A stretch of DNA of 28,336 nt, taken from a virus. Shown here piece after piece: positions 1-5,139 of this stretch (the stretch's first letter is position 1; the number at the start of each line of letters is the position of its first letter). The DNA lies in the IMG/VR virus record IMGVR_UViG_3300015608_001846, positions 60,001 through 88,336 of that record; one strand, given 5' to 3'. The notes under the pieces are model-generated. The model searched no databases. It was not told the origin of the DNA and was given only the letters and a program-made list of their open reading frames with translations. The translations under genes and the position numbers were made by a program.

Positions 1-280
1 ACACAATTTCGTCATCAAGCGTAAGTTGTCCAGCCTCAATCCAGCCACGTTGAGTCATGACGAGGTGATCAGAGGTGAGTTTAATGACACCAATGTCAGT
101 GTCAAGCTCAATCACGTCTTTCATGCCATTGCATACTGCGGCGACAATTACATCCTGTTCGAGCTCACCAGTCTCTTCATTATACGAAGGAAGCGTGACA
201 CCGATCATCTGATCGTCAACGATCTCTTTGATCGTGATTTCGCCTTCATCGGTCATGACCTTTGCATCGCCAGTCAAGCA
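1..280 (-). mobile_element. Intein (third in dnaE), N-terminal region only; continues beyond the window
   Basis: Cys codon at 280..278 directly after extein ...KKTYS. Block A-like CLTGDAKVM and block B-like LTSDH (TxxH). The window cannot show whether it is contiguous or split. Confidence 0.7.
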
Positions 281-637
281 CGAGTACGTCTTCTTCAGGA
301 TCTCGTTGATTCGTGGGTCACCCCACTCCAGCTCCTTGCCAGCCCTTGCTTCCAAGTAAAGCTTGTCAACGTTTGCCGCGAGAGGTCCAGGTCGGTAGAT
401 CGACGTCAGCGTCGCTATGTCAATGATGCTCTTCGGTTTGGCCTTGACGAACAGCCTTTGCGCACCTGAAGAGGTGAGCTGGAAGATGCCTGCCCACTTG
501 GCCTTTTCATACACCTCATACGGAGATCGGTCGTTGAAGTCGATGACATCGGGAGACATGTGCCGCTCGTACCAGTCCTTGATGTCGGCGAACGTGGGTT
601 TGCACTTCGAAATGTCAGTGACCTTGGTCGGTTTCAT
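1..637 (-). CDS. dnaE: DNA polymerase III alpha (DnaE) fragment D: 119-aa extein followed by the N-terminal part of a further intein. The ORF runs off the left edge and is absent from the supplied ORF track.
   Basis: Own translation of the minus strand from ATG 637..635: MKPTKVTDISKCKPTFADIKDWYERHMSPDVIDFNDRSPYEVYEKAKWAGIFQLTSSGAQRLFVKAKPKSIIDIATLTSIYRPGPLAANV...INEILKKTYS, then CLTGDAKVMTDEGEITIKEIV...IKLTSDHLVMTQRGWIEAGQL. GIFQLxS and YRPGP are canonical DnaE motifs. AGGAG lies just upstream of the ATG. Confidence 0.85.
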   Translation of the reverse strand, partial: MKPTKVTDISKCKPTFADIKDWYERHMSPDVIDFNDRSPYEVYEKAKWAGIFQLTSSGAQRLFVKAKPKSIIDIATLTSIYRPGPLAANVDKLYLEARAGKELEWGDPRINEILKKTYSCLTGDAKVMTDEGEITIKEIVDDQMIGVTLPSYNEETGELEQDVIVAAVCNGMKDVIELDTDIGVIKLTSDHLVMTQRGWIEAGQLTLDDEIV

Positions 638-1655
638 GGACTCCTACGCTGGACTGTCGATCGGTCCCGTCTGGGTTTGACGATTCATCGATGGGTGCTA
701 GCCCAGCGGGAGCGTACCGCCAGCGACACCCATCGTACACTCGACTGGCACGGATGATGTTTAGCATCGTCGACTTGCTGATCCCGAGGTGCCTCTGGGC
801 CGCCGACGCTGAGACGAACACCGCGACGATCGATCCTTCGTCATTGATCTGGTGCACGCACTTCGAGCGGGCCGCCGACAGCAGCGCCTTCGTCTCACCA
901 GAGAGCCTGCGACCCTTCAACGATCGTGAGATGATCGATCTTGTTTCATCTGAGTGGCCCGGGCGCTCCCGTATGGTCGAGCGCGCCCACGACCGACGAC
1001 CGTCCCCTGGAACCGTTGAGCTCGGGCGACGGCCCGACAGGATCGCAGACATGTGAGCGCGGCTGACGCCCGCTGCGCGAGCAGCATCGGACACGGAATC
1101 GTGCACGGCGACGACATTGCCGTCGAGGTCAAACTCGATGACCTGGGTGCAATTGATTCGACGGTGGTTCTGCTGGCGTTTGGCCCTGACGAGGCCCAAG
1201 CGCTCGATGCGATGGCCTGCGATCTCTTGCGCCTTCCGGCCCGAGCTCGTCGACAGCCTACCGACGATCTCAGCGGCCACGCCGAGGTACTGGGCTGCCG
1301 CTGCCGTCGACTCGAACGTCAATCGATCTCCGGCCGGCGTCCACAGCGCGATGGGCACCCGATTGATCCCCGACAGACCGGCGCCCCCTGTCGTCATGTT
1401 GCTTGCGATGTCTGACGCCAGCGGATCAGCGACGAACGTGTGAAGTTCACTGACCAGCCTCCTCTCCTCGGAAAATGCAAGTTCTTCACTGTCGGTCGAT
1501 ACCACGATGCGCCTGTCCAGGCCCAACGCTGCTGAAATTGCAGCGTGCTTCCTGTTACGTCTGACGTTCAGAACGCGTGACGGGCTTCCTTTGCCCACGT
1601 AGTATGCACGCGGCTGCTCTTCCTTCGTGTAGTCGACATATACGCAGAATTTCAT
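615..1655 (-). CDS. GIY-YIG family homing endonuclease with NUMOD1/IENR1-like HTH repeats and NUMOD3-like motifs
   Basis: N-terminus FCVYVDYTKEEQPRAYYVGKG (GIY..YIG spacing), then conserved Arg (RRNRKH) and Glu (FSEERRLVSEL). Three HTH-like repeats: AAQYLGVAAEIV, AARAAGVSRAHMSAIL, AAQRHLGISKSTMLNII. HSDETRSIISRSLKGRRLSGETKALLS is NUMOD3-like. The ATG overlaps the stop of the upstream dnaE piece (ATGA at 1652..1655). Sampled 60-nt lines are about 70% GC, against 40-58% in the flanks. Confidence 0.8.
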   Translation of the reverse strand: MKFCVYVDYTKEEQPRAYYVGKGSPSRVLNVRRNRKHAAISAALGLDRRIVVSTDSEELAFSEERRLVSELHTFVADPLASDIASNMTTGGAGLSGINRVPIALWTPAGDRLTFESTAAAAQYLGVAAEIVGRLSTSSGRKAQEIAGHRIERLGLVRAKRQQNHRRINCTQVIEFDLDGNVVAVHDSVSDAARAAGVSRAHMSAILSGRRPSSTVPGDGRRSWARSTIRERPGHSDETRSIISRSLKGRRLSGETKALLSAARSKCVHQINDEGSIVAVFVSASAAQRHLGISKSTMLNIIRASRVYDGCRWRYAPAGLAPIDESSNPDGTDRQSSVGVHETDQGH

Positions 1656-2527
1656 CGATGTTCAAGCGGAAATCGGAGATCATCATCGACGGTCACAGCA
1701 GCTACAGCCTTCCAGGATCCGTCCTCGAGCATGACTTCTGCGGTGCTCTTCAACCTATGCACCTCGCCTGAAAGCTCGATCTCAACAAGTCCGACCTGTC
1801 TTTCTTTTTGGATGATGAGTTCGATTGTCCGCTCAATGAGTCGCAAAGTTTCTAGACCCAGTAGGTCGTATTTGATGAAATTGCCGATGTACTCGAGGTG
1901 CTTGAAGTTGACGCCCTCGACCCAGGGCGACTGTGGTTCGCCGCCGGAACAGATCAGTGGCATCTTCGACGGCAGGTCATCGCAGATGAGGACACCGCCG
2001 GCGTGGCGGCCCAAGGACCGGTTCTGCTTGAACAGGATCTGGATCGACTCTGCGACCTGCGGGTGACGATCGATGAACGCCTTGAACGACGGAGAGTGGG
2101 CGATGGCATCCTCGTACTTCAAGACGAAGAGGTTCTTGTCGTCGCCGTGCTTCATCGTCGCCCGACGGACGTCGTCCTCGACGGTGCGAGTGGCTGCGTT
2201 GGTCTCCTCGAAGGGAACGCCGTAGAACTTGCCGATGTCCTTCACTAGTGTCTTAAGCTTAAGTGTAATGTAGTTCGAGATGGGCACCACGTTCTCAAAG
2301 CCGAAGAAGACACGCAGTTGGTCAAGGACCTTGTCGCGGTCAGCGAGGTCAGTGTCAATATCTGGGGCACCCGAGTTATGGGTCAGCGTCCAGTCGTGAC
2401 CATTATCAGACACCCAAAATGTGTGTTGATCTTTAACCTCAATGTCAATAAGGTCCAATTCCTCATCAACGACTTCGATGCTCTCGATCTTACACGTGTT
2501 TACAGATGAGACGCTCTGTGTCTGCAT
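1652..2527 (-). CDS. dnaE: IntC (split intein 2, C-half) fused to DnaE fragment C (palm region with catalytic PDxDxD)
   Basis: MQTQSVSSVNTCKIESIEVVDEELDLIDIEVKDQHTFWVSDNGHDWTLTHN, then SGAPDIDTDLADRDKVLDQL...GRHAGGVLI...YDLLGLETLRLIERT. The ...HN/S junction is a canonical intein C-terminal splice site. PDIDTD matches the DnaE catalytic Asp motif (E. coli PDFDVDF). Confidence 0.85.
   Translation of the reverse strand: MQTQSVSSVNTCKIESIEVVDEELDLIDIEVKDQHTFWVSDNGHDWTLTHNSGAPDIDTDLADRDKVLDQLRVFFGFENVVPISNYITLKLKTLVKDIGKFYGVPFEETNAATRTVEDDVRRATMKHGDDKNLFVLKYEDAIAHSPSFKAFIDRHPQVAESIQILFKQNRSLGRHAGGVLICDDLPSKMPLICSGGEPQSPWVEGVNFKHLEYIGNFIKYDLLGLETLRLIERTIELIIQKERQVGLVEIELSGEVHRLKSTAEVMLEDGSWKAVAAVTVDDDLRFPLEHR
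2375..2527 (-). mobile_element. Split intein 2, C-terminal half (IntC2, about 51 aa or shorter)
   Basis: Ends TLTHN (codons to 2375), followed by Ser +1 (2374..2372). Strongly acidic (EVVDEELDLIDIE). Confidence 0.75.
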
Positions 2528-3428
2528 AGTTTCTGTGTTCCAGGTTCGGGATCAAATCGTACACTCCAAGTCGTCGAAGTTCATTGTAGAAGTCGTCCAT
2601 GTAGATGACATCGATGTGTTGGCCTGAAGTCACGATGGCTTTTCGGGCACGTGAGTTTGAATTTAGTAGCTTTGAAAAACGTGATTTACCTTCACGCACT
2701 CCCTTTAGCTCAACGTACCTGTCTTCAGCGCTGAACCAAAAATCAGGAGTGTAGCACTTCTCAACGCCATCGACGACGACATGAAACGCTTTCGCCTCAT
2801 ACTTGGGCGTCACTCCCAAGACGTGCACACAGTATCTGTAGTAGTCAGCCTCAAACGAACTCTTGAAGTATGGACTGTCCACGATGTCAGTACGAAAACC
2901 AGACCGTCCGTTCACATGGGACGCAACCATACCACGCGACTGCGCTTCACGTGTACATCGCTTTCCGCAGAAACGTGGCGTGTAACTCTTCTTTGTGGTG
3001 ATCGGTTTGTCACACATCTCGCAATTGTGCACATGAACATCAACACGTGAAACTGAAAAGCACTTGGGTGAGCAGAACTTTTGTGTTGCCTTTTTGGATG
3101 TGAACTCACGTTTGCAACTCACACACGTCAACACCAACGTCGCAATTTTGGTCAATGCTTTCGCCGTGTGCTTGTATCTACAGGCATTCGAACACAGTTC
3201 ACGAGCGCTGTGACACTTGGACACATAAAACTCATTGCCGCACTCAACGCATGTTTTGACTAACCTCGTCAAAAGAGGCGCACGGGATGCTAGCTTCTTT
3301 TGGGCCCAAGCACAAGCGTCAGAGCAATACTGTCGTCGTAACTTATTGCCAGAACCCTTACCCTTGGGCTCATAGTCAAATCGAAACGTGAGTCTGCAAT
3401 GTTTACATTGTTTCTCAATGATGTTCAT
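2490..3428 (-). CDS. Free-standing putative homing endonuclease: four tandem zinc-ribbon modules plus a C-terminal PD-(D/E)XK-type nuclease domain
   Basis: Four repeats of CxxC-x13-23-[FYL]CxxxC: CKHC..YCSDAC, CVEC..LCSNAC, CVSC..FCSPKC, CEMC..FCGKRC. C-terminus SSFEADYY...CYTPDFWF...RYVELKG gives an E...PD...ExK signature. Lies between IntN2 and IntC2 on the same strand and overlaps both neighbours. Confidence 0.6.
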   Translation of the reverse strand: MNIIEKQCKHCRLTFRFDYEPKGKGSGNKLRRQYCSDACAWAQKKLASRAPLLTRLVKTCVECGNEFYVSKCHSARELCSNACRYKHTAKALTKIATLVLTCVSCKREFTSKKATQKFCSPKCFSVSRVDVHVHNCEMCDKPITTKKSYTPRFCGKRCTREAQSRGMVASHVNGRSGFRTDIVDSPYFKSSFEADYYRYCVHVLGVTPKYEAKAFHVVVDGVEKCYTPDFWFSAEDRYVELKGVREGKSRFSKLLNSNSRARKAIVTSGQHIDVIYMDDFYNELRRLGVYDLIPNLEHRNYADTERLICKHV

Positions 3429-3912
3429 GATGGTACGTATACATCACGTCATCGATCGTCAAGTCTGACGTACGTTTCTTTGTTGGTTTTCCATCAAGTC
3501 CAACCACGAGCCACTCGTGGTTTCCCGAGCACGTGAAGGTGGAGCCGTTCACCTTCACCCGGTATGTTTTCTCGTGTTTCATCGTCACCACGTGGGTGAC
3601 CTCACGAGACGAACCATCTTGTGCAATAACGCTATCACCGACCCTGATATCTCGAAGCGCTGACGTTGACCCGCCAGACATCAAAACGCGCGTTTCAGGT
3701 GAAAGGCAGCGATGGACAGATAGAAACCTTGCGAAAGGCAGGTCCCACTTCAACGGGTCCAAGTCAGTGATGTAGAGGACGTAGGCAACGAGAGAGCCAC
3801 CGCCTGAGTTATGGACTGCGACGCCTTCCACATTGTAGGTGTGGCTGTTCTCAACGCAGAGGTCTACGACCTCACCCTTATACGGAACGACTGTCTTGCT
3901 TTTGAGCTTCAT
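3415..3912 (-). CDS. dnaE: IntC1 (35 aa) + 33-aa DnaE micro-extein (fragment B) + IntN2 (97 aa) in one 165-aa ORF
   Basis: From ATG 3912: MKLKSKTVVPYKGEVVDLCVENSHTYNVEGVAVHN | SGGGSLVAYVLYITDLDPLKWDLPFARFLSVHR | CLSPETRVLMSGG...TCSGNHEWLVV...HHEHH. The extein matches the conserved DnaE stretch GSxAGSLVAY..ITD.DP......ERFLNPER. The track ORF start at 3954 is less likely because it lies deep inside the upstream gene. Confidence 0.85.
   Translation of the reverse strand: MKLKSKTVVPYKGEVVDLCVENSHTYNVEGVAVHNSGGGSLVAYVLYITDLDPLKWDLPFARFLSVHRCLSPETRVLMSGGSTSALRDIRVGDSVIAQDGSSREVTHVVTMKHEKTYRVKVNGSTFTCSGNHEWLVVGLDGKPTKKRTSDLTIDDVMYTYHHEHH
3418..3708 (-). mobile_element. Split intein 2, N-terminal half (IntN2, 97 aa)
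   Basis: Cys1 codon at 3708..3706 after extein ...SVHR. Block A CLSPETRVLM, block B CSGNH. The ORF stops without any C-terminal intein blocks. Confidence 0.8.
3808..3912 (-). mobile_element. Split intein 1, C-terminal half (IntC1, 35 aa)
   Basis: MKLKSKTVVPYKGEVVDLCVENSHTYNVEGVAVHN aligns by eye with the cyanobacterial DnaE IntC pattern (..YDIGVE.DHNF....G...HN). Asn codon 3810..3808, Ser +1 at 3807..3805. Confidence 0.8.
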
Positions 3913-4903
3913 GGTATGCGTTCGCCTTCTTTGAATAGGCGCGTAGGTCCACATCCAATACTACCTTGTACGACCGAGCGTTTGCATTGCACCAGCTCGC
4001 CAAAGCTTCAAGCTTCGCACACCAGGTCAACGGAGATGCATCGATCCAACGCTGCCCCTTTACCTCAACGATAACACCATCGACCACGAAGTCTGGATAA
4101 TAGTCGTGTTCCTTGCCATCGATAGGATCCACGTAAGGTACCGAAAAACCACACCGAACTGCATGTTTCCCGTTGTCAACACACCAGAGCAGAAACGCCA
4201 GTTCTAGCTTCGAGTGGTAGACAGTGACTCCTTCATACAGACCAACGTGTTTATAGACGCCCCGTCCGCCGACCCGGTCGCGGTAATCTGGATCGGATGC
4301 CCACTTGTTACGCATGATGCAAGCCATGTTCTCTTTGTACGCTGGGTCGCTCACTGTTCGTTTTTGTGCCTCTCGCATCACCTTGCCTTGGTCACCCACC
4401 CACAAGGCGCGTGAATTCTCTCGGTGCCTCTCAAGGGTCTCGGGACGGTTCTGAGCGGCAAGTTGAGCCCTGGAATTGATGGCACGGACCTCTTCGTCCC
4501 ACTGATGATGTTTGCGATAACACGATGGACATGCTTGGACGTGGTGACGCCGAGAAAACAGTTTCTTCGCAACACTGACGTATACCACCGAACAATGAAT
4601 GCATCTGACCTGAACTCGTGCCTTCTTTGAGTGTTTGTTCCATTCGTACTCGTCCCACGCAAAACCGATGTAGGGTTTGAAACCCGTCAACGTTGCACGA
4701 CGAGCATACGTCGTTCGATTGATACCGAGGATGGGCTCCAGTAACGACCACAAACGCTGTGTGATGAGCTGCGAATCATCGACACGAAGCGCTTCAATCA
4801 CCACACCCATTTGCTCGTGCGTCAGGAGAATTATCTTAGGCTTCTTCCCTTTGAACCGGGTGCTAGCACGTTCGCGTGCTTCCCGCGTCTTCCGACCATC
4901 CAT
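3878..4903 (-). CDS. Free-standing putative homing endonuclease with a C-terminal PD-(D/E)XK-type nuclease domain and a different N-terminal DNA-binding region
   Basis: C-terminus YHSKLELAFLLWC...HDYYPDFVVDGVIVEVKG gives E...PD...ExK (TnsA/restriction-endonuclease-like). Zinc ribbon CIHC...CPSC. Lies between IntN1 and IntC1 on the same strand. Confidence 0.6.
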   Translation of the reverse strand: MDGRKTREARERASTRFKGKKPKIILLTHEQMGVVIEALRVDDSQLITQRLWSLLEPILGINRTTYARRATLTGFKPYIGFAWDEYEWNKHSKKARVQVRCIHCSVVYVSVAKKLFSRRHHVQACPSCYRKHHQWDEEVRAINSRAQLAAQNRPETLERHRENSRALWVGDQGKVMREAQKRTVSDPAYKENMACIMRNKWASDPDYRDRVGGRGVYKHVGLYEGVTVYHSKLELAFLLWCVDNGKHAVRCGFSVPYVDPIDGKEHDYYPDFVVDGVIVEVKGQRWIDASPLTWCAKLEALASWCNANARSYKVVLDVDLRAYSKKANAYHEAQKQDSRSV

Positions 4904-4926
4904 GCTTCGCAGGTATGGAACGTGGG

Positions 4927-5139
4927 TCAGGTAAACTTCGGAAACAAAAGCTTTGTCGGCGCTTTTGGAACGTCATCTTCATCGCTAAGCCCATGTTGTT
5001 CCCACAATTGCTCATCAAGCAAACGAAAATCGATCGCGTCGAAGAGTTTCAAAAGATCAAGAGGCTCTTCAGAACTTGAAGATGACTCGAACTTCGCAAT
5101 CAAAGCAACGGTTTCAGCTTTGTATTCTTTGATTTTCAT
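4927..5139 (-). CDS. Hypothetical small acidic protein (70 aa)
   Basis: The ORF's ATG overlaps the stop of the IntN1-bearing dnaE piece (ATGA at 5136..5139). Acidic, serine-rich; no recognisable motif. Confidence 0.45.
   Translation of the reverse strand: MKIKEYKAETVALIAKFESSSSSEEPLDLLKLFDAIDFRLLDEQLWEQHGLSDEDDVPKAPTKLLFPKFT

What the first reader, a model, noticed from the sequence alone, without database searches (positions are those of the whole stretch)
2490..4903. Nuclease genes inside both split inteins carry an E...PD...ExK signature rather than a classical homing-endonuclease fold, and one has four tandem zinc modules
Both intervening ORFs end in a domain with a PD-(D/E)XK signature.
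- 3878..4903: S-KLE-LAF ... YYPDFVV ... VEVKG.
- 2490..3428: S-SFE-ADY ... YTPDFWF ... VELKG.

This is the TnsA / restriction-endonuclease-like arrangement. It is not LAGLIDADG, HNH, GIY-YIG or His-Cys box. As far as I recall, the free-standing nucleases reported with fractured genes belonged to a Vsr-related EDxHD family, and I do not see that motif here.

The N-terminal halves are unrelated to each other. One ORF has four tandem CxxC-x13-23-[FYL]CxxxC modules, a modular zinc array that could read a long target. The other has a single CxxC...CxxC ribbon plus helical repeats.

The picture is two diverged paralogous catalytic domains with swapped DNA-binding modules, at insertion sites 33 codons apart. 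That looks like a homing-endonuclease family diversifying in situ.
Basis: partly seen in the sequence, partly recalled or inferred. Interest (0 to 1): 0.65.

Follow-up and report, generated by a model that had tools for sequence, protein, structure and literature searches.

The report
New nuclease type inside split inteins
Two selfish nuclease genes lodged inside broken self-splicing elements (split inteins) of a large phage's DNA polymerase gene cut DNA with a restriction-enzyme-like domain related to T7 endonuclease I and TnsA, a type I could not find reported for intein-associated homing endonucleases.

Summary
On the minus strand a phage dnaE gene is broken by two split inteins 33 codons apart. 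Each holds a free-standing gene: ORF A (3878-4903) and ORF B (2490-3428). Both end in a PD-(D/E)XK domain. The E...PD...ExK residues are invariant in 22 and 26 relatives, down to about 30% identity.

Profile and fold searches place ORF A with TnsA_N/T4-gp4-like nucleases and ORF B with T7 endonuclease I. Neither fits the Vsr-like EDxHD family. ORF B has four invariant CxxC...CxxxC zinc modules.

Across related phage contigs, ORF-A-type genes sit only at dnaE site 1. Four-module ORF-B-type genes sit only at site 2. Either site is empty in many relatives, which is the pattern expected of homing elements.

The same ORF-B-type domain also occurs in frame inside contiguous dnaE inteins, in one phage-like contig and in Saccharibacteria/Patescibacteria genomes.

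The "paralogues diversifying in situ" idea is not supported. Each nuclease domain scores higher against stand-alone phage nucleases than against the other, and the two elements are distributed independently.

Verdict: a new variant of the known "fractured gene" arrangement, using a nuclease type I found in no accessible paper on inteins. Cleavage is untested.

The parts
5412..6836 (-). dnaE N-extein (PHP domain plus start of the Pol III alpha domain), ending ...LVGPGRG
   Evidence: Pfam PHP and DNA_pol3_alpha, profile positions 2-66. Boundary.
5136..5411 (-). N-half of split intein 1 (91 aa, CFVPETRVLM...CTKDH...), including the stop codon
   Evidence: Pfam Intein_splicing and Hint hits. Lengths.
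4927..5139 (-). Small acidic ORF (70 aa) between intein half and ORF A. Its ATG overlaps the intein stop (ATGA).
   Evidence: Sequence. A 78%-identical 58-aa ORF sits at the same place in L166. No family hit.
3878..4903 (-). ORF A, a 341-aa free-standing nuclease: helical N-terminus, one Zn ribbon, helical repeats, C-terminal PD-(D/E)XK domain
   Evidence: The AF2 model has pLDDT 86.
4520..4603 (-). ORF A zinc ribbon (C101, C104, C125, C128)
   Evidence: C101, C104 and C128 are invariant and C125 is at least 90% conserved.
3899..4261 (-). ORF A nuclease domain (residues about 215-335; E234, D271, E280, K282), TnsA_N/gp4-like branch
   Evidence: Invariant residues. Pfam TnsA_N hits in 18/22 family members. 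Foldseek top hit is TnsA 1t0f, probability 0.98. The ORF-A profile scores 64 bits on gp4-like proteins.
3808..3912 (-). C-half of split intein 1 (35 aa from the internal Met, ...VAVHN)
   Evidence: ORF translation. Nearly the same intein-C is seen in L147/L151.
3709..3807 (-). 33-codon dnaE extein piece SGGGS...FLSVHR between the two inteins
   Evidence: Pfam DNA_pol3_alpha positions 65-102.
3415..3708 (-). N-half of split intein 2 (97 aa, CLSPETRVLM...CSGNH...), including the stop codon. It overlaps the ORF B start by 14 nt.
   Evidence: Pfam Hom_end_hint E=6.5e-12. Sequence.
2490..3428 (-). ORF B, a 312-aa free-standing nuclease: four zinc modules plus a C-terminal PD-(D/E)XK domain
   Evidence: The AF2 model has pLDDT 90.6.
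2955..3407 (-). ORF B array of four CxxC-x14-23-CxxxC modules (residues 8-158)
   Evidence: Each module is modelled as a beta-hairpin plus helix. phrog_1271 'HNH endonuclease' matches only this region, E=1.4e-14. Mycobacterium phage Gaia gp136 also matches it.
2493..2921 (-). ORF B nuclease domain (residues 170-312; E193, D229, E240, K242), T7 endonuclease I-like branch
   Evidence: The family profile hits T7 endonuclease I (1m0d) at E=2.4e-5 with the catalytic residues aligned. Pfam Phage_endo_I hits in 13/26 members. Foldseek hits are PD-(D/E)XK folds.
2375..2527 (-). C-half of split intein 2 (up to 51 aa, ...WTLTHN). It overlaps the ORF B end by 38 nt.
1652..2374 (-). dnaE extein piece 3 (SGAPDIDTD..., rest of the Pol III alpha palm domain)
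   Evidence: Pfam DNA_pol3_alpha positions 101-260, E=5e-17.

Best explanation
ORF A and ORF B are two independent free-standing homing endonuclease genes. Each is lodged at the endonuclease position of its own split intein in the dnaE gene of a large, probably jumbo, phage.

Each protein joins a sequence-reading N-terminal part to a C-terminal Mg-dependent PD-(D/E)XK nuclease with the catalytic set E...D...ExK.
- ORF A has helices, one zinc ribbon and helical repeats. Its nuclease belongs to the TnsA_N / T4-gp4 branch.
- ORF B has four tandem treble-clef-like zinc modules. Its nuclease belongs to the T7 endonuclease I branch.

Inferred mechanism: during co-infection the N-terminal modules bind the conserved dnaE sequence of an allele lacking the insert. 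These sequences are GPGRG|SGGGS for ORF A and F(L/S)xxxR|S..PD.D for ORF B. The nuclease cuts nearby. Recombinational repair from the donor genome then copies the nuclease gene together with both intein halves. Protein trans-splicing restores the polymerase, so the insert is tolerated.

Shown here: fold and motif assignment, conservation, site linkage, and presence/absence polymorphism.
Inferred: DNA binding by the modules, site-specific cleavage, oligomeric state, and homing itself.
For: 1. Catalytic residues are invariant across both families.

2. Profile matches:
- ORF-B family versus T7 endonuclease I 1m0d gives E=2.4e-5. FkSsfE, YTPDF and vElkG align to the segments that hold E20, D55, E65 and K67 (residue numbers from my own knowledge).
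- ORF-A family gives TnsA_N hits in 18/22 and Phage_endo_I in 14/22.
- ORF-B family gives Phage_endo_I hits in 13/26.

3. The AF2 models are confident (pLDDT 86 and 90.6) and show a helix carrying E followed by strands carrying D and ExK.

4. Foldseek PDB hits are PD-(D/E)XK nucleases. TnsA and I-Bth0305I are on top, each at probability 0.98.

5. Site linkage:
- ORF-A types are found only at dnaE site 1, including 28-30%-identical ones in L007 and L008.
- 25 of 25 four-module ORF-B types counted are flanked by dnaE pieces, and every locus checked places them at site 2.
- 54 of 58 three-module relatives are not flanked by dnaE pieces, and at least one of the other four (L157) is a four-module protein miscounted by the pattern. 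L121 lies between an epimerase gene and a VWA gene.

6. Polymorphism:
- Site 2 is empty where ORF A is present (L001, L006, L007, L008).
- Site 1 is empty where ORF B is present (L087-L099, L167 and others).
- Both sites are empty in L109, L141 and L153.
- L004 has a split intein at site 1 without a nuclease.

7. The same ORF-B-type domain lies in frame inside contiguous dnaE inteins.
- L199 has one at site 2: 285 aa, no stop codon.
- Saccharibacteria/Patescibacteria dnaE ORFs of 1445-1452 aa have one.

8. The zinc modules are shared with HNH homing-type endonucleases.
Against: - There is no biochemical evidence of any kind.
- Both window proteins fall below the Pfam gathering scores: 19.6 and 13.7 bits versus 29.1, and 19.6 versus 26.5.
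- Foldseek E-values on the whole multi-domain models are weak, 0.04-0.06.
- The closest characterised relatives are not sequence-specific. T7 endonuclease I is structure-specific. T4 gp4 is reported as a non-specific DNase (PMC7824862).
- DNA around the empty sites is too diverged at synonymous positions to define a target or a symmetry.
- No promoter-like signal above chance lies upstream of either gene.
Confidence: 0.75

Rival explanations
1. One reading: the two nucleases are paralogues that arose by duplication at this locus, then swapped DNA-binding modules and moved 33 codons (in-situ diversification).
For: - The two nuclease domains are remote homologues: hhalign probability 73%, E=3e-5 over 103 columns.
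- The two intein N-halves are 32% identical.
- The dnaE genes of these phages carry several EndoI-like nucleases at different sites.
Against: - Each domain scores higher against stand-alone nucleases elsewhere than against the other: 64 versus 5-18 bits, and 29-64 versus 8-10 bits (19-24 for the distant L007/L008 members).
- Their Pfam affinities differ.
- The nearest relatives of ORF A (L001, L006) have site 2 empty. The nearest relatives of ORF B (L167, L087) have site 1 empty.
- The window is the only fetched locus that carries both nucleases.
Confidence: 0.07
2. They are homing nucleases, but the target is a pre-existing nuclease-less (mini or split) intein allele rather than the intein-less dnaE site. 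The nuclease gene alone would move into resident inteins, as in the gene-breaking model of Dassa 2009.
For: - L004/L005 carry a split intein at site 1 with only an 85-nt gap and no nuclease.
- L147/L151 have the intein-1 C-half with no adjacent N-half.
- Fusion states exist: P0091 is nuclease plus intein-C in frame, and L199 is fully in frame.
Against: - No nuclease-free contiguous mini-intein was seen at site 1 or 2 among the fetched loci. Most nuclease-free alleles are intein-free.
- The nuclease-less split intein may equally be a product of nuclease loss.
Confidence: 0.2
3. They are not site-specific mobile nucleases. They would be phage housekeeping nucleases (junction resolvase like T7 endonuclease I, or packaging/head-completion nuclease like T4 gp4) that merely sit between dnaE fragments.
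For: - The nearest characterised families are a resolvase and a head-completion nuclease.
- phrog_218 'head closure' matches ORF A at E=3.5e-8.
Against: - Housekeeping versions are about 140-150 aa single-domain proteins. ORF A and ORF B carry 170-215 extra residues of Zn and helical modules.
- They are absent from many close relatives of the phage.
- They are tied to particular codons of dnaE across 30-75% sequence divergence.
- The domain occurs in frame inside inteins.
Confidence: 0.06
4. They are decaying, inactive passengers left over from past invasions.
For: Homing-cycle theory predicts endonuclease decay after fixation. Truncated or fused variants exist: L199 has lost three and a half zinc modules.
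Against: - Both ORFs are full-length with all catalytic and zinc ligands.
- These residues are invariant or at least 90% conserved in 22-26 diverged relatives.
- The sites are polymorphic, not fixed.
Confidence: 0.07

Closest known systems
[quoted passage not shown] 2009, PMC2677866)
   Same: - A DNA-metabolism gene (dnaE was among the eight host types) is broken by a split intein.
- A same-strand nuclease gene lies between the halves.
- The setting is phage or metagenomic.
- The nuclease is bipartite: a DNA-binding part plus a catalytic part.
   Different: - The nucleases reported there were GIY-YIG or Vsr-like only. Here they are canonical E-D-ExK domains of the TnsA_N and T7 EndoI branches.
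- There are two such cassettes 33 codons apart.
- There is an extra small ORF in cassette 1.
- The genes overlap, rather than being preceded by a 27-51 nt spacer.
I-Bth0305I / EDxHD (Vsr-like) homing endonucleases (Taylor et al. 2011, PMC3239194)
   Same: - Restriction-endonuclease-like core fold. 3R3P is the top Foldseek hit of the ORF B model, probability 0.98.
- C-terminal catalytic domain behind an N-terminal DNA-binding region.
- Phage-borne and associated with self-splicing elements.
   Different: - The catalytic set there is E170/D196/H213/D222 with a histidine base. Here it is E/D/E/K with no conserved histidine in the core.
- There is no sequence-level match to 3R3P, Vsr or DUF559.
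T7 endonuclease I (Pfam PF05367; PDB 1M0D, 1FZR, 2PFJ)
   Same: The ORF-B family profile aligns over about 67 residues, including all four catalytic positions, at E=2.4e-5. 13/26 relatives hit PF05367.
   Different: - T7 endonuclease I is a 149-aa single-domain, structure-specific junction resolvase that forms a domain-swapped dimer (own knowledge).
- ORF B adds a 160-residue zinc array and sits in an intein.
- The window protein is below the Pfam gathering score.
TnsA N-terminal domain / T4 gp4 head-completion nuclease (PF08722)
   Same: - The ORF A domain is nearest to these. TnsA is the top Foldseek hit.
- 18/22 relatives hit PF08722.
- tblastn hits fall on cyanophage 'gp4 head completion' genes.
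- gp4 is described as a TnsA-like REase-fold nuclease (PMC7824862).
   Different: - There is no Tn7 partner gene.
- gp4-like proteins are about 140 aa and reported as non-specific.
- ORF A has about 215 extra N-terminal residues and a fixed position inside an intein.
- The window protein is below the gathering score.
I-Ssp6803I, the classical PD-(D/E)XK homing endonuclease (PMC3384342)
   Same: A homing endonuclease with a canonical PD-(D/E)XK active site.
   Different: - I-Ssp6803I is a small tetrameric enzyme encoded in cyanobacterial introns, with no separate DNA-binding modules.
- No sequence or top-50 fold match to it was found.
Modular free-standing phage endonucleases with Zn-finger or NUMOD DNA-binding parts (I-TevI-type GIY-YIG, zinc-ribbon HNH enzymes such as Mycobacterium phage Gaia gp136)
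   Same: - The same kind of zinc modules (phrog_1271 E=1.4e-14; Gaia gp136; many BFVD hits).
- The same logic of swapping catalytic cores onto DNA-binding arrays.
   Different: The catalytic core here is PD-(D/E)XK rather than HNH or GIY-YIG.

Membership tests
PD-(D/E)XK (restriction-endonuclease-like) superfamily | Conserved acidic and lysine catalytic residues: E on the first helix, D at a strand start, (D/E)xK on the next strand | tested here: met
   E234/D271/E280/K282 are invariant in the ORF-A family. E193/D229/E240 are invariant and K242 is at least 90% conserved in the ORF-B family. Their positions on the helix and strands of the models fit.
PD-(D/E)XK (restriction-endonuclease-like) superfamily | alpha-beta-beta-beta-alpha-beta core fold similar to solved members | tested here: met
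   Predicted only. Confident PDB fold matches are TnsA for ORF A and I-Bth0305I for ORF B (probability 0.98, E 0.04-0.06); the weaker hits are mostly PD-(D/E)XK nucleases (bunyavirus and influenza cap-snatching endonucleases, RecE, SSO0001) mixed with unrelated folds.
T7 endonuclease I family (PF05367) | Score above Pfam's gathering threshold (29.1 bits) | tested here: not met
   ORF A scores 19.6 bits and ORF B 13.7 bits. At family level, 14/22 and 13/26 members hit at E<=0.01.
T7 endonuclease I family (PF05367) | Alignment of the catalytic residues E20, D55, E65 and K67 | tested here: met
   The ORF-B profile versus 1m0d, 2pfj and 1fzr aligns all four (E=2.4e-5). The ORF-A profile aligns only the D/E/K segment (E=0.057).
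T7 endonuclease I family (PF05367) | Domain-swapped homodimer with structure-specific junction cleavage | not testable with these tools
   Only monomer models were made. No biochemistry is available.
TnsA N-terminal nuclease family (PF08722) | Score above the gathering threshold (26.5 bits) | tested here: not met
   ORF A scores 19.6 bits, although 18/22 relatives hit at E<=0.01, best 4.7e-7. ORF B and its family have no hit.
TnsA N-terminal nuclease family (PF08722) | Tn7-like context (TnsB/TnsC partners) | tested here: not met
   The neighbours are dnaE fragments and intein halves only.
EDxHD / Vsr-like homing endonucleases | Conserved E, D, H, D catalytic set with a histidine base (I-Bth0305I E170, D196, H213, D222) | tested here: not met
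   There is no conserved histidine in either nuclease core, and lysine is present instead.
EDxHD / Vsr-like homing endonucleases | Detectable sequence similarity to Vsr, DUF559 or 3R3P | tested here: not met
   No such hit in Pfam or in PDB sequence and profile searches up to E=1-10. Only superfamily-level fold similarity was found.
Fractured-gene arrangement (Dassa 2009) | Conserved enzyme gene broken by a split intein, with a same-strand free-standing endonuclease gene between the halves | tested here: met
   It occurs twice in the dnaE gene of the window.
Fractured-gene arrangement (Dassa 2009) | Endonuclease of GIY-YIG or Vsr-like type, preceded by a 27-51 nt non-coding spacer | tested here: not met
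   The nuclease types differ. ORF A has a 23-nt spacer after an extra small ORF. The ORF B start overlaps the intein stop by 14 nt.
Homing endonuclease (functional class) | Fixed association with one insertion site, with occupied and empty alleles among homologous host genes | tested here: met
Homing endonuclease (functional class) | Site-specific cleavage of the empty allele and copying of the element by repair | not testable with these tools
   This needs enzyme assays or co-infection experiments.
I-Ssp6803I-type PD-(D/E)XK homing endonucleases | Sequence or close structural similarity to I-Ssp6803I | tested here: not met
   It is absent from the PDB sequence and profile hits and from the top 50 Foldseek hits.

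The most novel reading that the evidence does not exclude
T7-EndoI/TnsA-like PD-(D/E)XK nucleases form a previously unrecognised, intein-associated homing endonuclease family. For one dnaE site, all the intermediate states of 'a free-standing nuclease becoming an intein domain' are preserved in nature:
- intergenic and free-standing (three zinc modules);
- free-standing inside a split intein (the window);
- fused to the intein C-half (P0091);
- fully in frame in a contiguous intein (L199; also Saccharibacteria dnaE at another site).

In this reading the tandem zinc modules act as a modular, count-variable DNA reader that sets target choice.
Probability: 0.4. Interest if true: 0.72.

Novelty: new variant of a known kind. 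Interest (0 to 1): 0.6.

Why it matters
Homing endonucleases are usually sorted into about six structural families.

For inteins, the papers I could read list these types:
- LAGLIDADG and HNH, in frame;
- GIY-YIG and Vsr-like, in split inteins;
- recently, an endonuclease VII-like type.

A canonical E-D-ExK nuclease of the T7 endonuclease I / TnsA kind would add another catalytic type. It is seen here free-standing in split inteins and in frame in contiguous inteins of phage and CPR-bacterial dnaE.

It would also give direct comparative material for the long-standing question of how endonucleases enter inteins and how genes become split.

The tandem zinc-module array, whose module number tracks genomic location, is a candidate modular DNA-recognition scaffold. 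That could interest enzyme engineers.

All of this rests on sequence and predicted structure. Cleavage specificity is untested.

Tried and rejected
- Megablast of window 1-8000 against 50,697 phage records found no match. No cultured relative is available.
- tblastn of the full proteins against the same records found only domain-level hits.
- Single-sequence PDB searches found nothing meaningful. Family profiles were needed.
- Whole-model Foldseek against PDB gave weak E-values because the models are multi-domain. T7 endonuclease I itself was not recovered, probably because its chains are domain-swapped (inference).
- The promoter and terminator scan of 1500-7500 found nothing above shuffled expectation.
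- I compared DNA around site 1 in empty versus occupied alleles for a conserved or palindromic target. The sequences are too diverged at synonymous positions to say anything, and I did not do this for site 2.
- NCBIfam and PADLOC gave no useful family and no defence-system match.
- No NUMOD3 hit was found for the ORF A helical repeats. The resemblance to the NUMOD3-containing intein nucleases (P0134) remains a lead only.
- Literature searches found no report of an EndoI/TnsA-type nuclease in inteins. The library lacks most subscription journals and InBase, so prior description cannot be excluded.

Full report
**Layout.** All genes of interest are on the minus strand. In order they are:
- dnaE N-part (PHP plus start of the Pol III alpha domain) fused to an intein N-half, 5136-6836;
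- a 70-aa ORF, 4927-5139;
- ORF A, 3878-4903;
- an ORF holding intein-1 C-half, a 33-residue dnaE piece and intein-2 N-half, 3415-3954;
- ORF B, 2490-3428;
- intein-2 C-half plus the rest of the palm domain, 1652-2527.

Pfam confirms the dnaE and Hint assignments. The breaks fall at DNA_pol3_alpha profile positions about 65/66 (site 1) and about 101/102 (site 2). Both inteins keep Cys1, a TxxH-type block B and an HN|S C-terminal junction. The rest of the window has phage-type genes, all on the same strand: PNKP, ThyX, DNA methylases and an epimerase. Relatives lie on viral contigs of 180-310 kb. The source is therefore probably a jumbo phage.

**Observation.**
- ORF A has 37 database relatives and ORF B has 33, all unnamed.
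- In alignments reaching 33% and 32% identity, the E, PD and E of the motif are invariant. The K is invariant in the ORF-A family and at least 90% conserved in the ORF-B family. The zinc ligands are invariant or at least 90% conserved.
- This rules out chance and argues for selection on catalysis.

**What the domains are.**
- Single-sequence Pfam hits are weak and below gathering scores. ORF A: Phage_endo_I 19.6 bits and TnsA_N 19.6 bits. ORF B: Phage_endo_I 13.7 bits.
- Across families the signal is consistent. TnsA_N hits 18/22 and Phage_endo_I 14/22 ORF-A relatives. Phage_endo_I hits 13/26 ORF-B relatives, and TnsA_N hits none.
- The ORF-B profile matches T7 endonuclease I structures at E=2.4e-5. 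FkSsfE, YTPDF and vElkG align to the segments holding E20, D55, E65 and K67. The mutant entries 1fzr and 2pfj differ from wild type exactly at the E and K of the VETKG motif, which fits those numbers (residue numbers from my own knowledge).
- The ORF-A profile matches endonuclease I only marginally, at E=0.057.
- AF2 models are confident (pLDDT 86 and 90.6). They show a helix bearing E followed by strands bearing D and ExK.
- Foldseek against PDB returns TnsA on top for ORF A and the I-Bth0305I catalytic domain on top for ORF B (probability 0.98 each). Its E-values are weak, 0.04-0.06, and the lower hits mix other PD-(D/E)XK nucleases with unrelated folds.
- The EDxHD set (E170, D196, H213, D222 in I-Bth0305I) is absent. 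There is no conserved core histidine, lysine is present, and there is no sequence hit to Vsr, DUF559 or 3R3P.

**Two branches, not local paralogues.**
- The families align to each other only over about 103 C-terminal columns (hhalign probability 73%, E=3e-5).
- The ORF-A domain profile scores about 64 bits on 140-aa stand-alone phage proteins. These are strong TnsA_N members (77 bits). In cyanophages they are annotated gp4 head-completion protein, which is described as a TnsA-like REase-fold nuclease (PMC7824862). The same profile scores only 5-18 bits on ORF-B types.
- The ORF-B domain profile scores 45-64 bits on other EndoI-like phage nucleases, 30 bits on a T7 endonuclease I fragment and 29 bits on the gp4-like protein. 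It scores only 8-10 bits on the close ORF-A types and 19-24 bits on the distant L007/L008 members.
- Duplication at this locus is therefore unlikely.

**Evidence for mobility.** I reconstructed the spliced dnaE junction region and mapped it on all fetched loci.
- ORF-A types sit at site 1 in W, L001-3, L006 and L166. They also sit there in L007 and L008, where the nuclease is only 28-30% identical. In L001, L006, L007 and L008 site 2 is uninterrupted.
- Four-module ORF-B types counted are flanked by dnaE pieces in 25 of 25 cases, and every locus mapped (also L167) places them at site 2. In most of these loci site 1 is uninterrupted.
- Both sites are empty in L109, L141, L145, L153 and L154.
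- L004/L005 have a split intein at site 1 with an 85-nt gap and no nuclease.
- The window is the only fetched locus with both nucleases.
- Three-module ORF-B relatives (about 255 aa) are mostly not flanked by dnaE. The one locus checked with Pfam, L121, lies between an epimerase gene and a VWA gene.
- Module number therefore tracks location.

**Wider family.**
- A full-database search with the ORF-B nuclease domain found only 146 cluster representatives at E<=1e-3. Most are 300-320 aa with the same architecture.
- The long hits are dnaE proteins.
- P0112 has a contiguous 285-aa intein at site 2 with the ORF-B-type nuclease in frame, and only half a zinc module is left. This was verified on DNA as L199, with no internal stop.
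- P0091 is a four-module nuclease fused in frame to the intein C-half and dnaE.
- P0178, P0167 and P0134 carry a contiguous intein in the finger domain. It holds a zinc ribbon and, at least in P0134, a NUMOD3 motif, followed by the EndoI-like domain.
- A scan of species-representative genomes found this last arrangement in Saccharibacteria/Patescibacteria MAGs. The dnaE ORFs are 1445-1452 aa with no internal stop. The WEADF, YTPDFY and YEIKG motifs are kept.
- Other EndoI-like nucleases occupy another split intein of dnaE in L166, and the slot just upstream of dnaE in L006, L161 and L166.
- A DUF7487 protein matched by the ORF-A (TnsA-like) nuclease profile lies between nrdD and nrdG in L009.
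- BFVD shows many phage proteins that combine zinc arrays with HNH, DUF559, TnsA_N or endonuclease I cores.

**Literature.**
- Dassa 2009 found only GIY-YIG and Vsr-like nucleases in fractured genes.
- Reviews list PD-(D/E)XK homing enzymes only as the I-Ssp6803I type, alongside EDxHD.
- A 2025 survey lists the intein-associated types as LAGLIDADG, HNH, VSR-like and GIY-YIG, plus a new endonuclease VII-like one.
- I found no report of an EndoI/TnsA-type nuclease in inteins. The searchable library is incomplete.

**Verdict.**
- The fold and family interpretation and the homing reading are supported by comparative evidence.
- The in-situ diversification idea is not supported.
- Cleavage, target, oligomeric state and DNA reading by the modules are inferred, not shown.

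Noticed in passing
window 4927-5139 (-): A 70-aa strongly acidic ORF lies between the intein-1 N-half and ORF A, and its ATG overlaps the intein stop (ATGA). A 78%-identical 58-aa ORF sits at the same place in L166, but the ORF is absent in L001. It has no family hit. It may be a partner or regulator of ORF A.
   Followed up: partly
window 615-1655 (-) and 1-636 (-): There is a third break of dnaE with no recognisable intein. The palm piece ends at 1652. Next comes a 346-aa ORF with NUMOD1, I-HmuI-NUMOD and I-TevI DNA-binding hits; it looks GIY-YIG-like by eye, but no GIY-YIG domain was detected. The finger-domain piece then starts near 636 and runs into yet another intein N-half (CLTGDAKVMTDEG...) at the window edge.
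   Followed up: partly
window 6846-7280 (-): An endonuclease VII-type ORF (Pfam E=6e-18) lies directly upstream of dnaE. In L006, L161 and L166 the slot just upstream of dnaE holds a 264-275 aa EndoI-like nuclease instead. This suggests an intergenic hot spot for free-standing nucleases.
   Followed up: partly
L166 8531-9835 (-); L004 9900-11189 (-): An opposite-strand ORF of about 430 aa (weak REase_MTES_1575 hit in L004) lies between intein-like pieces of dnaE a few codons after site 2. It may be yet another nuclease type in a split intein.
   Followed up: no
L166 11575-12264: A 229-aa EndoI-like nuclease (Phage_endo_I E=7.8e-5; 59 bits with the ORF-B domain profile) sits in a further split intein between the palm and finger domains of dnaE.
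   Followed up: partly
L147 5520-6011; L151 5520-6005: The middle piece (intein-1 C-half, 33-residue extein, intein-2 N-half) is present, but the genes upstream are unrelated. The dnaE N-part with the intein-1 N-half must lie elsewhere, so this is a fully dispersed split intein.
   Followed up: no
L199 1158-5273: The same dnaE ORF ends in a second intein N-half fused in frame to a DUF559 (Vsr-like) nuclease. The dnaE C-part follows as a separate gene. EndoI-like and Vsr-like nucleases therefore coexist in one gene, in different fusion states.
   Followed up: no
L009 and L025 5302-6384: A 360-aa DUF7487 protein, matched by the ORF-A (TnsA-like) nuclease profile at 39-42 bits, lies between nrdD and nrdG. 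This is a classic position for free-standing phage homing endonuclease genes. Pfam lists DUF7487 as of unknown function.
   Followed up: partly
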